DNA from: a virus
Reading direction: 5' to 3' (one strand)
Length of the DNA: 25,338 bases
UHGV virus genome: UHGV-0380352
The notes under the pieces were generated by a model. It made no database searches. It was not told where the DNA came from and worked only from the letters and a program-made list of their open reading frames with translations. The position numbers and the translations under genes are program-made. Positions 21,487 to 21,933 of this stretch are shown here, piece after piece. The first letter of the stretch is position 1. Each line of letters opens with the position of its first letter.

Positions 21487-21933
21487 TGTTGGCTCCGTTT
21501 ATCCGTTAAAAGGGATATCAGTTAAGTTATCCCGTGTAGGGTATAAGCCATTGTCGAGACCACTCATTGAATGGTCTCTGCAATAACCGATGTCTTTCCA
21601 TCAGTCCGCCACCACAAAGAATCTTTTTTGCCATAAGGCAGGAAGTTCATCTTTCAGTGGCTGCCAGTGTTATTTCCCCACTTACTGGCTTGGGTTGCTT
21701 CGTGGTACTGCCGTAACTGGTTGCCAAGAATAAATTCCGGTTTCATTATCAAGCCCACCCGTAGATGGGCTTTGTAATGAACTGGCTCTTATCTCAACGC
21801 AGCCCCTTACCGCGCGCCAGATGCTCAATATCAAGCATCAGCAATGAGATGTTTAATCTGGATTCACTCCAGAAGTGTTCACCACCCTGTCTACAGAGCC
21901 AGATGTGAAGGATGATGAGTAAAATTATCGCTA

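What the first reader, a model, noticed from the sequence alone, without database searches (positions are those of the whole stretch)
21487..21933. 447-bp region without a substantial ORF between Rz and the terS-proximal small gene
In an otherwise tightly packed late operon, this stretch has no ORF above 60 aa on either strand. The minus strand has three consecutive tiny ORFs (about 31, 29 and 22 codons) and an inverted repeat aagccc-(10 nt)-gggctt at 21751-21772. It could hold a remnant of a deleted accessory gene, a small RNA, or a cis-acting site. This is a known variable spot in P22-like genomes.
Basis: seen in the sequence. Interest (0 to 1): 0.35.

Follow-up and report, generated by a model that had tools for sequence, protein, structure and literature searches.

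The report
Empty accessory-gene site with conserved hairpins
The "gene-free" stretch is the cargo-less version of a known accessory-gene insertion hot spot in P22-like phages, but it still holds one small real gene and two copies of a conserved, apparently undescribed RNA-type hairpin that marks where relatives carry extra genes.

Summary
All genes here are on the minus strand: Rz, then the gap, then a DUF2560/orf80-like gene, terS and terL.

No ORF exceeds 60 aa, and the inverted repeat is at 21751-21772.

The other ~300 bp are the "empty" allele of the lysis-to-packaging accessory-gene (moron) hot spot. At about five junctions inside it, relatives carry Rha, KilA-N, GIY-YIG-like, Tad2-like, gp49/66 or DUF551 genes, or P22 pid.

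A paralogous copy, H2, lies at 21546-21588. In 56 distinct relatives:
- 96% of cells pair, and 9 of 16 pairs show compensatory changes.
- The CA/GA internal loop is essentially invariant (CA 56/56, GA 54/56).
- G·U outnumbers A·C 82 to 7, so the late-mRNA sense strand is the one that folds.

The hairpin occurs in lambdoid prophages across Enterobacterales, including P22 and HK97, and in about 11% of complete E. coli genomes. It is not in Rfam. It sits 1-4 nt after stop codons or directly after intrinsic terminators.

Its function is inferred, not shown. My best guess is an intercistronic late-mRNA processing or stability signal that also serves as a crossover point for cassette exchange.

The parts
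21934..22401 (-). Rz (i-spanin) gene, the upstream boundary. Rz1 is embedded at 21975-22181.
   Evidence: ORF list. Annotated as Rz in the aligned relatives Kapi1, Sf6 and epsilon34.
21794..21937 (-). Small gene of 47 codons (alternative ATG at 21946 gives 50). It belongs to the Sf6 gene 65 / Kapi1_042 / epsilon34 gp67 family. It has a hydrophobic N-terminus, and its ATG overlaps the Rz stop codon (ATGA).
   Evidence: phrog_11822 E 5.4e-34. The exact 50-aa protein is on 130 contigs, in a cluster of 566 members, named 'Bacteriophage protein (Gene 65)'. The reading frame is intact in 37 of 38 distinct variants. No Pfam or NCBIfam family matches.
21742..21781 (-). Junction hairpin H1: UUCAUUA-CA-AAGCCCAUC-uacg-GGUGGGCUU-GA-UAAUGAA. 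The lower stem has 7 bp, then a 2x2 CA/GA internal loop, then an upper stem of 9 bp.
   Evidence: Fold -22.7 kcal/mol, z -5.7. Covariance-model hit of 71.6 bits. Inverted repeat I3. Covariation.
21771..21780 (-). Cassette junction 1. The motif TCATTACAAA is duplicated on both sides of the cargo in relatives.
   Evidence: Alignment breakpoints and junction alignment. Cargo here in relatives: Tad2-like (Kapi1, Huey), Rha (phiv205-1), GIY-YIG-like (epsilon34) and KilA-N.
21589..21741 (-). Conserved non-coding spacer between the two hairpins. It holds further junctions at 21721-21731 and 21714-21716, and the ATG (21634) of a non-conserved 35-codon ORF.
   Evidence: 87 distinct variants at 90-99% identity, with 1-nt indels. 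Its ORFs have stops or frameshifts in relatives. Weak, sub-threshold resemblance to Rfam Proteo-phage-1 at 21659-21730 (17.1 bits against a gathering score of 42).
21546..21588 (-). Junction hairpin H2, a paralogue of H1: GGUUAUUG-CA-GAGACCAUUC-aau-GAGUGGUCUC-GA-CAAUGGCU.
   Evidence: Fold -24.2 kcal/mol, z -5.8. Covariance-model hit of 60.1 bits. Five compensatory pair changes relative to H1. Junctions 2 and 2b (21587-21589 and 21566-21584) carry Sf6 gene 66 or DUF551 cassettes in relatives.
21487..21545 (-). Leader of the DUF2560 gene. GGAG at 21493-21496 lies 6 nt before the ATG at 21486. A weaker inverted repeat spans 21499-21546. Junction 3 (21500-21528) is where P22 carries the pid moron.
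   Evidence: Sequence. Inverted repeat I1. P22 40180-40368 equals window 21714-21528, and P22 41000-41258 equals window 21500-21242. The pid locus is P22 nt 40357-40998 (PMC3573128).
21244..21486 (-). DUF2560 (P22 orf80 / Sf6 gene 67) gene, the downstream boundary, followed by terS (20786-21214) and terL (19374-20789).
   Evidence: Pfam PF10834 E 2.6e-42. Variable sites by codon position are 9, 11 and 43.

Best explanation
The interval is the cargo-free allele of the accessory-gene (moron) hot spot between the lysis cassette and the packaging genes of P22-like lambdoid phages.

Read on the minus (late-operon) strand it contains, in order:
- a real 47-codon gene of the Sf6 gene 65 family, whose start overlaps the Rz stop;
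- hairpin H1;
- a 150-nt non-coding spacer;
- hairpin H2;
- the ribosome-binding leader of the DUF2560 gene.

H1 and H2 are two paralogous copies of one conserved two-tier stem-loop: lower stem YAUUR/YAAUG, an essentially invariant CA/GA internal loop, and an upper stem containing CCAU...GUGG. Each copy sits exactly where relatives carry inserted cassettes.

Shown: the anatomy, the homology, the cassette junctions, selection for base pairing, and that the late-mRNA sense strand is the one that folds.

Inferred: the hairpins act in the Q-antiterminated late transcript as intercistronic punctuation. That means a processing and/or stability signal of the kind RNase III sites provide in phage T7 mRNAs. 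The signal would be seen only by read-through late transcripts, because moron transcripts stop at their own terminators just upstream. As short conserved repeats, the hairpins would also act as crossover points through which cassettes are gained, swapped and lost.
For: Empty-site status:
- 211 phage records match the interval, mostly in 2-4 pieces with genes in between.
- Breakpoints recur at 21771-80, 21721-31, 21714-16, 21587-89, 21566-84 and 21500-28 in 87 loci.
- About 6 of 80 IMG/VR loci and several complete E. coli genomes have the same uninterrupted arrangement.
- Cargo families seen in relatives are Rha, KilA-N, T5orf172/GIY-YIG-like, Tad2-like, gp49/66, DUF551 and a trypsin-like peptidase. 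The P22 pid papers describe the same site.

Small gene: phrog_11822 E 5e-34; cluster of 566 members.

Hairpins are real and under selection for pairing:
- Fold z-scores are -5.7 and -5.8.
- In 56 distinct sequences 96.1% of cells pair, against 30-53% when the partner is slid. Nine of 16 pairs have compensatory changes, and 0 of 500 shuffles reach the covariation score.
- The four stem pairs left free in a degenerate-pattern scan are complementary in every Enterobacterales-type hit. Chance hits in other phyla show 0-2 of 4 pairs.

Sense-strand folding and position:
- G·U versus A·C is 82 to 7. One U·G pair is kept in 50 of 56 sequences. The internal loop is CA in 56 of 56 and GA in 54 of 56.
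- Every copy with identifiable neighbours is on the coding strand, between lysis genes and DUF2560/terS/terL.
- In 55 of 82 distinct upstream contexts an open frame of at least 40 codons ends within 25 nt upstream, mostly 1-4 nt before the hairpin. In 9 of 82 an intrinsic terminator's T-tract abuts it.
- The next gene's SD-ATG often follows 17-28 nt later.

Crossover role:
- Variants L034, L041, L044 and L087 have a single H1/H2 hybrid hairpin, with the spacer between them deleted.
- At least 10 unrelated upstream sequences and several different downstream sequences join the same hairpin.
Against: - No transcript, cleavage or stability data exist for these hairpins. The RNA role rests on strand asymmetry and position only.
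- G·T wobbles are also tolerated in folded single-stranded DNA, so a DNA-level role for the same strand is not excluded.
- Lambda and the K-12 DLP12 prophage lack the element at the equivalent place, so it is not needed by all lambdoid late operons.
- Much of the sequence set is closely related (90-99% identity) and was partly retrieved with a pattern that fixed the conserved blocks. Conservation of those blocks is therefore partly by construction.
- Codon-position diversity of the small gene (0.032, 0.015, 0.026) shows no clear purifying-selection signature.
Confidence: 0.55

Rival explanations
1. Pure scar. The 300 bp are decaying leftovers of deleted cassettes (old terminator stems, gene stubs) with no present function. 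They look conserved only because these phages exchanged the segment recently.
For: Relatives are 90-99% identical. Spacer diversity is not lower than the local baseline. ORF fragments such as the orf118-like start are present. The region can be shortened, as the H1/H2 hybrid variants show.
Against: Hairpin pairing is maintained through compensatory changes in distant Enterobacterales genera (Erwinia, Pantoea, Serratia, Rosenbergiella, Buttiauxella), where both flanks are unrelated. The internal loop is essentially invariant. A decaying scar would not covary.
Confidence: 0.12
2. DNA-level recombination site. The hairpin folds in single-stranded DNA and is the target of a structure-specific recombination or nicking activity that captures and exchanges gene cassettes, much as integron attC sites do. 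Alternatively it is the target of the homing-type nucleases found among the cargo.
For: The layout is gene plus hairpin. Junctions fall exactly at the hairpin edges or inside its 5' arm, with a 9-10 bp CATTACAAA duplication flanking the cargo. An alternative hairpin, H3, travels with the site-2 cassettes. Hybrid hairpins arise by recombination between copies. L070 has a 'perfected' palindrome, suggesting intrastrand templated repair. GIY-YIG-like and HNH genes occur nearby. The strand asymmetry fits ssDNA as well as RNA.
Against: No integron-type integrase was seen, and the attC core motifs (RYYYAAC/GTTRRRY) are absent; the ends are CATTACA/GAYAATG. Most cargo genes are not nucleases. Only 1-3 copies occur per phage, always at this one locus. 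The constant orientation with transcription and the tight stop-hairpin-SD spacing are better explained at the mRNA level.
Confidence: 0.15
3. The hairpins are Rho-independent terminators of the morons, or of the small gene.
For: They sit right after stop codons and have stable G+C-containing stems.
Against: No U-tract follows the stem; the 3' flank is GAYAAUG plus variable sequence. The terminator scan finds nothing on the minus strand. In 9 of 82 contexts a canonical terminator (stem plus T5-7) lies immediately 5' of the hairpin, which would make a second terminator redundant. The element sits inside an operon that must be read through to reach terS and terL.
Confidence: 0.05
4. The spacer (about 21659-21730) encodes a small RNA related to the Rfam Proteo-phage-1 motif, or the tiny ORFs encode micro-proteins.
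For: A weak Rfam hit scores 17.1 bits, E 0.6-1.4. Two sequence blocks match the consensus (AAGCCaGUaAGUG and AAUAACACUGGCAGCC), and GCCAG/CUGGC against the consensus GCCGG/CCGGC is a possible compensatory change. The 35-aa frame stays open over its full length in 140 phage records.
Against: The score is far below the gathering score of 42 and the model stems are broken. No Proteo-phage-1 hit reached threshold in the 32 related loci searched at the gathering threshold, nor at E up to 10 in 10 loci. No promoter or terminator bounds it. Six of 15 translations of the 35-codon ORF and 14 of 30 of the 30-codon ORF contain stops, and 16 of 37 variants of the latter have indels.
Confidence: 0.05

Closest known systems
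The rha / pid accessory ('moron') region between gene 15 (Rz) and orf80/gene 3 of phage P22 (Cenens et al. 2013, PMC3573128; Wolput et al. 2022, PMC8835761)
   Same: It is the same locus. P22 40180-40368 and 41000-41258 align to window 21714-21528 and 21500-21242. The papers state that related phages have no insert or a different insert at the pid position. The window is such a no-insert phage, and it also lacks rha.
   Different: The window has none of the P22 cargo (rha, pid). The papers do not mention the hairpin directly upstream of pid. The P22 record annotates it only as the doubtful 'orf25', which begins inside the hairpin loop.
Intercistronic RNase III processing hairpins of phage T7 early and late mRNAs, and lambda sib retroregulation (my own knowledge, not tested here)
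   Same: Both are two-tier helices of about 18-20 bp with an internal loop, lying between cistrons of a long phage polycistronic mRNA, close behind a stop codon and just ahead of the next ribosome-binding site. Here the hairpin lies just beyond a terminator, so only antiterminated transcripts would contain it, as with sib.
   Different: There is no sequence similarity and no cleavage data. The internal loop here is a small symmetric 2x2 CA/GA, whereas I recall the T7 loops as larger and asymmetric. The resemblance is positional and dimensional only.
Integron attC sites and bacterial REP/BIME elements (folded, strand-specific repeats at gene ends)
   Same: Both are imperfect palindromes with strand-specific wobble pairs and conserved unpaired bases. 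Both follow genes in one orientation and coincide with cassette boundaries.
   Different: No attC core motifs and no IntI were seen. Copy number is 1-3 per genome and confined to one prophage locus, not hundreds of chromosomal copies as for REP.
'Boundary sequences' at mosaic junctions of lambdoid phages (Clark et al. 2001, HK620; annotated as bsq features in the Sf6 record)
   Same: These are short conserved sequences found at the edges of exchanged modules.
   Different: The only bsq feature in this part of the Sf6 record (bsq7) lies inside the Rz gene, not at the hairpins. Boundary sequences were described as sequence motifs, not as covarying structures. I could not read the original paper.

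Membership tests
Accessory-gene (moron) hot spot between lysis and packaging genes of P22-like phages | Lies between Rz/Rz1 and the orf80 (DUF2560)/terS genes of the late operon | tested here: met
   ORFs and Pfam; synteny with Sf6, Kapi1, epsilon34 and P22.
Accessory-gene (moron) hot spot between lysis and packaging genes of P22-like phages | Related phages carry different, unrelated inserts at the same junctions, and some carry none | tested here: met
   Recurrent breakpoints in 87 loci. Cargo families. Same uninterrupted arrangement as the window in L033, L070, L046, L048, L086 and L023. P22 pid mapping and literature.
Accessory-gene (moron) hot spot between lysis and packaging genes of P22-like phages | Inserts have their own promoter and/or terminator | tested here: inconclusive
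   Intrinsic terminators are seen at the cargo ends in relatives. A promoter is documented only for pid (PMC8835761). The window itself has no insert to test.
phrog_11822 / Sf6 gene 65 small protein | Full-length profile match and position immediately after Rz | tested here: met
   E 5.4e-34 over residues 1-47. Same position in Sf6, Kapi1, epsilon34 and Huey.
Rho-independent terminator | G+C-rich stem-loop followed directly by a U-tract | tested here: not met
   The stem is present, but the 3' flank is GAUAAUGAAACC for H1 and GACAAUGGCUUA for H2. No minus-strand terminator in the scan.
Rfam Proteo-phage-1 RNA (RF03044) | Covariance-model score at or above the gathering score of 42 bits | tested here: not met
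   17.1 bits at 21659-21730, E 0.6-1.4, stems not formed. No hit in relatives.
Any Rfam 15 family (for hairpins H1 and H2) | Match at the gathering threshold | tested here: not met
   Only tRNAs reach threshold in 21000-24200. The best hit on H1 is the STnc100 terminator, at 12.4 bits against 47.
Integron attC site | Inverse core RYYYAAC and core GTTRRRY at the outer ends of the palindrome, with an IntI integrase | tested here: not met
   The outer ends are CATTACA and GAYAATG in 56 of 56 sequences. I did not search for an integron integrase.
RNase III processing site (phage T7 type) | Helix of about two turns with an internal loop, in an intercistronic position of a polycistronic mRNA | tested here: met
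   7-8 bp, then a 2x2 loop, then 9-10 bp. Placed between a stop codon and the next SD.
RNase III processing site (phage T7 type) | Cleavage by RNase III in vivo or in vitro | not testable with these tools
   No transcript-end data were available.
REP/BIME elements | Many dispersed chromosomal intergenic copies matching the REP consensus | tested here: not met
   1-3 places per E. coli genome, in 11% of genomes. None elsewhere in the 25-kb window or in the whole P22 genome.

The most novel reading that the evidence does not exclude
The two-tier hairpin may be a structure-specific recombination signal. On this reading phage accessory genes travel as 'gene + hairpin' cassettes, inserted and excised at a resident hairpin in the late operon. 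That would make it an integron-like cassette system without a dedicated integron integrase, and a physical basis for the old 'linker' idea of modular phage evolution.
Probability: 0.08. Interest if true: 0.85.

Novelty: new member of a known kind. Interest (0 to 1): 0.45.

Why it matters
The locus itself is ordinary. It is the no-cargo state of a hot spot already known from the P22 rha and pid genes.

What is new is that the hot spot is punctuated by a conserved, covarying, strand-specific hairpin. The hairpin is present in textbook phages (P22, HK97, Sf6) and in about one in nine complete E. coli genomes. It is not annotated in the records I examined, apart from the doubtful P22 'orf25'. It is absent from Rfam, and I did not find it in the searchable literature.

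If it is an mRNA processing or stability signal, it would explain how terminator-bounded morons can sit in a 20-kb late operon without disturbing expression of the packaging genes. If it is a recombination signal, it gives a concrete and mutable handle on why mosaic junctions recur at the same nucleotides.

Either reading can be tested directly in P22, which has a single copy.

It also flags the site as a place to look for anti-defence cargo. Tad2-like and gp49/66 genes sit there in relatives.

Tried and rejected
- **Rfam.** Searches over 21000-24200 and 21480-21940 at E up to 10 gave only tRNAs at threshold. Proteo-phage-1 (17 bits) and the STnc100 terminator (12 bits) are sub-threshold. Thirty-two related loci searched at the gathering threshold, and ten at E up to 10, gave no Proteo-phage-1 hit.
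- **Promoter and terminator scan**. There are no minus-strand sites. The two plus-strand promoter-like hits equal the shuffled expectation. The plus-strand terminator-like site at 21624-21645 is a weak 3-GC stem that overlaps the ATG of the 35-codon ORF.
- **Tiny ORFs as genes.** No PHROG or Pfam hits. Stops and indels appear in relatives. The ATG inside the hairpin's GAYAATG does not open a conserved ORF.
- **More copies elsewhere.** I looked in the 25-kb window, the whole P22 genome, the lambda Rz-cos region and the K-12 DLP12 lysis-nohD region. There were none beyond those reported.
- **Conservation of the spacer.** Its diversity is not clearly below the local baseline, so I make no claim of selection on it.
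- **Sigma-70 promoter built around GATAAT in the hairpin's 3' arm.** No -35 element lies at a usable distance (by eye).
- **Literature.** Six searches and the epsilon34, Sf6-evolution, BTP1-transcriptome and two pid papers contain no description of the hairpin. The supplement of Weinberg et al. 2017, which describes Proteo-phage-1, is not held.
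Full report
**Layout and check of the observation**

All genes around the finding are on the minus strand:
- Q-like antiterminator, 23643-24161
- tRNA-Asn and tRNA-Thr, 23424-23579
- holin, 22858-23181
- endolysin, 22398-22874
- Rz, 21934-22401, with Rz1 embedded at 21975-22181
- the interval in question
- an 80-aa DUF2560 protein, 21244-21486 (Pfam E 2.6e-42)
- an Sf6-type terS, 20786-21214
- terL, 19374-20789

No ORF above 60 aa lies in 21487-21933, and the inverted repeat aagccc-N10-gggctt is at 21751-21772.

Its list of tiny ORFs is only approximate. It also missed a 47-codon minus-strand ORF at 21794-21937 (50 codons from 21946). The ATG of this ORF overlaps the Rz stop codon as ATGA.

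**The small gene**

This ORF matches phrog_11822 at E 5.4e-34 over its whole length. It is the homologue of Sf6 gene 65, Kapi1_042 and epsilon34 gp67, all of which sit directly after Rz. The exact 50-aa sequence occurs on 130 public contigs, in a cluster of 566 members, named at best 'Bacteriophage protein (Gene 65)'.

The frame is intact in 37 of 38 distinct variants. No Pfam or NCBIfam family matches, so its function is unknown. Diversity by codon position (0.032, 0.015, 0.026) does not show a clean coding signature, so I treat it as a probable gene rather than a proven one.

**The rest is an empty cassette site**

Megablast of 21400-22000 finds 211 phage records, in Lederbergvirus and also in HK97-like siphoviruses such as HK140 and mEp234. 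Most align in 2-4 pieces, with annotated genes between the pieces.

Pairwise mapping to seven annotated phages, 80 IMG/VR loci chosen through the DUF2560 protein and P22 shows recurrent breakpoints:

| Window coordinates | What relatives have there |
|---|---|
| 21771-21780 | Tad2-like/DUF2829 in Kapi1 and Huey; Rha in phiv205-1; GIY-YIG-like in epsilon34; KilA-N proteins |
| 21721-21731 and 21714-21716 | Further breakpoints; cargo not characterised |
| 21587-21589 | Sf6 gene 66 (Pfam Phage_gp49_66) |
| 21566-21584 | DUF551 cassettes, ending in an intrinsic terminator |
| 21500-21528 | The P22 pid moron |

Six of the 80 IMG/VR loci (L033, L070, L046, L048, L086, L023) are uninterrupted across the interval like the window, and several complete E. 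coli genomes cover the whole Rz-to-DUF2560 stretch in a single piece. Salmonella phage SEN22 matches 21209-21923 in one piece, but an IS element interrupts it at the Rz-proximal end.

**The tiny ORFs are not genes**

- The 35-codon ORF (21527-21634) corresponds to what the epsilon34 record calls the N-terminus of ST64T orf118. Six of 15 distinct translations in relatives contain stops.
- For the 30-codon ORF starting at the ATG at 21746, 16 of 37 variants have indels and 14 of 30 translations contain stops.
- The spacer shows 1-nt indels among 87 variants.

**The hairpins**

On the minus strand, 21781-21742 folds as UUCAUUA-CA-AAGCCCAUC-uacg-GGUGGGCUU-GA-UAAUGAA, at -22.7 kcal/mol, z -5.7.

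A second stem-loop with the same architecture lies at 21588-21546: GGUUAUUG-CA-GAGACCAUUC-aau-GAGUGGUCUC-GA-CAAUGGCU, at -24.2 kcal/mol, z -5.8. The plus-strand versions are weaker, at -21.1 and -15.3 kcal/mol.

The two copies align in register at about 67% identity. They differ by five compensatory base-pair changes.

A covariance model built from them finds only these two copies in the 25-kb window, at 71.6 and 60.1 bits. The next best score, 22 bits, is the opposite strand of H1.

In relatives a third variant, H3 (UUAUUA-CA-AAAGCCAUUC-ccuaca-GAGUGGCUUU-GA-UAAUGG), replaces H2 whenever cargo is present at the second site. H3 carries three further compensatory changes relative to H2.

**Breadth and covariation**

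I scanned IMG/VR with a degenerate pattern that fixed the conserved blocks and left four stem pairs and the loop free. Their free positions are complementary: AAAG/CTTT, GGAG/CTTC, GAGA/TCTC, GAGG/CTTC, AGAG/CTCT and GAAG/CTTC.

The same scan of one genome per species returned 41 hits. The roughly 31 Enterobacterales-type hits have 3 or 4 of 4 free pairs complementary. They come from Raoultella, Serratia, Pantoea, Erwinia, Buttiauxella, Kosakonia, Leclercia, Rosenbergiella and others, plus MAG contigs assigned to other phyla that carry sequence identical to the E. coli phage copies. The roughly 10 hits in unrelated phyla have 0-2 of 4, which serves as a built-in negative control.

On a model-based alignment of 56 distinct sequences:
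- 96.1% of cells are standard pairs, against 30-53% when partners are slid.
- 9 of 16 pairs show changes on both sides.
- No shuffle in 500 reaches the observed covariation score.

Caveat: the alignment is fitted to the model, and the pattern fixed some blocks. The independent evidence is therefore the free stem pairs and the model hits in P22 and HK97.

Within the 14 inner pairs, G·U occurs 82 times and A·C 7 times. One U·G pair is kept in 50 of 56 sequences. The internal loop is CA in 56 of 56 and GA in 54 of 56. The strand that folds is therefore the late-mRNA sense strand.

**Context of the hairpin**

- Every IMG/VR copy with recognisable neighbours lies on the coding strand. Rz, the gene-65 homologue or the endolysin is upstream, and DUF2560, terS or terL is downstream. 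This includes phages with quite different lysis cassettes and terminases.
- Among 82 distinct upstream contexts, 55 have an open frame of at least 40 codons whose stop lies within 25 nt, mostly 1-4 nt before the hairpin. Nine have a canonical intrinsic terminator whose T-tract abuts it (TTTTTATTGSC-ATTACA).
- The next gene's SD and ATG often follow 17-28 nt after the hairpin. In the common E. coli and Salmonella DUF2560 leader the distance is 62 nt.
- P22 has one copy, at 40304-40354. It lies after rha and immediately before the pid cassette, and it overlaps the annotated 'orf25', which starts in its loop.
- HK97 has two copies, upstream of its gp74 HNH gene.
- The lambda Rz-cos region and K-12 DLP12 have none.
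- H2-type and H1-type sequences occur in 593 and 604 of 5426 complete E. coli genomes, at 1-3 places each. The hits listed carry no annotated feature.

**Evidence that the hairpins are crossover points**

- Cargo at the first site is flanked by a direct repeat of TCATTACAAA, which is the 5' arm of H1.
- At least ten unrelated upstream sequences join the same H1 at the same nucleotide. Downstream sequences also vary between genera.
- Loci L034, L041, L044 and L087 carry a single H1/H2 hybrid hairpin, joined in the shared GAYAATG, with the 200 nt between the copies deleted.
- L070 has the two lower-stem mismatches 'corrected' into a perfect palindrome.

**How it most likely works**

Shown: this is the cargo-free allele of a known moron hot spot, and it contains one small gene and two copies of a structured element whose base pairing is under selection on the sense strand.

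Inferred: the element functions in the late transcript.

It is not a terminator:
- It has no U-tract.
- The scan finds no minus-strand terminator between Rz and terS.
- Real terminators sit directly in front of it in some relatives.

Three features resemble the intercistronic RNase III sites of T7 mRNAs: its size (about 18-20 bp with an internal loop), its place between a stop codon and the next ribosome-binding site, and its essentially invariant unpaired bases. Its position just beyond moron terminators means that only Q-antiterminated transcripts contain it. That recalls lambda sib retroregulation. Both comparisons come from my own knowledge and are leads, not tests.

My probability estimates:

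| Reading | Probability |
|---|---|
| RNA-level processing, stability or translation role | about 0.35-0.4 |
| RNase III specifically | about 0.2 |
| DNA-level structure-specific recombination role | about 0.15 |
| No function | about 0.1 |

The anatomical conclusions I hold at about 0.9.

**Novelty and score**

The variable locus is already known. The small gene is a known hypothetical family.

The hairpin family is not in Rfam 15. It is not annotated in the phage and E. coli records I examined, apart from the doubtful P22 'orf25'. I did not find it in the searchable literature. It is a new member of a familiar kind of element: conserved intercistronic or junction stem-loops.

It is of moderate interest. 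It is present in model phages, easy to test, and relevant to how mosaic junctions recur. There is no functional evidence yet.

Noticed in passing
window 23424-23579 (minus strand): Two tRNA genes, tRNA-Thr(TGT) and tRNA-Asn(GTT), lie between the Q-like gene and the holin. Sf6, Kapi1 and BTP1 have tRNA genes in the same place.
   Followed up: partly
L014 2556-2618; L224 6277-6341: The Rfam int-alpA RNA motif (RF02996, 45.1 bits against a gathering score of 35.8) lies inside the cargo that relatives carry at window junction 21566-21584, upstream of a DUF551 gene. A known structured RNA therefore travels in this hot spot.
   Followed up: no
window 21659-21730 (minus strand): There is a sub-threshold resemblance to Rfam Proteo-phage-1 (17.1 bits, E about 1). 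Two long sequence blocks match the consensus, and there is a possible GCCAG/CUGGC pairing. No supporting hits were found in relatives.
   Followed up: partly
L208 (P22 NC_002371) 40304-40406: The annotated P22 'orf25' (40329-40406) begins at an AUG in the loop of the conserved hairpin and runs into the pid cassette. It is probably not a gene.
   Followed up: partly
L002 (Kapi1) 1890-2411; L006 (Huey) 997-1497: The cargo at junction 1 in several E. coli phages is a Tad2-like (Thoeris anti-defence 2-like, PF11195) protein. Huey's record labels this gene and a gp49/66 gene 'anti-CRISPR'. The hot spot may be a good place to look for anti-defence genes.
   Followed up: partly
L001 (Salmonella phage SEN22) 784-1931: An IS/transposon with a frameshifted transposase is inserted near window-equivalent 21917-21923, inside the gene-65 homologue. 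Otherwise the phage has the same empty arrangement as the window.
   Followed up: no
L070 2701-2750: A variant of H1 has the two lower-stem mismatches changed (GA to TG) to give a perfect 13-bp palindrome arm. This suggests intrastrand templated correction.
   Followed up: no
window 21499-21546: A third, weaker inverted repeat (19-nt arms, 74% complementary) spans the position where P22 carries pid. On the minus strand it reads GGGAUA-N10-UAUCCC, in the DUF2560 leader.
   Followed up: no
window 21794-21937: Nucleotide diversity of the gene-65 homologue by codon position is 0.032, 0.015 and 0.026. This is not the third-position excess seen in DUF2560 (0.017, 0.010, 0.089), so coding constraint is weak or the allele spread recently.
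   Followed up: partly
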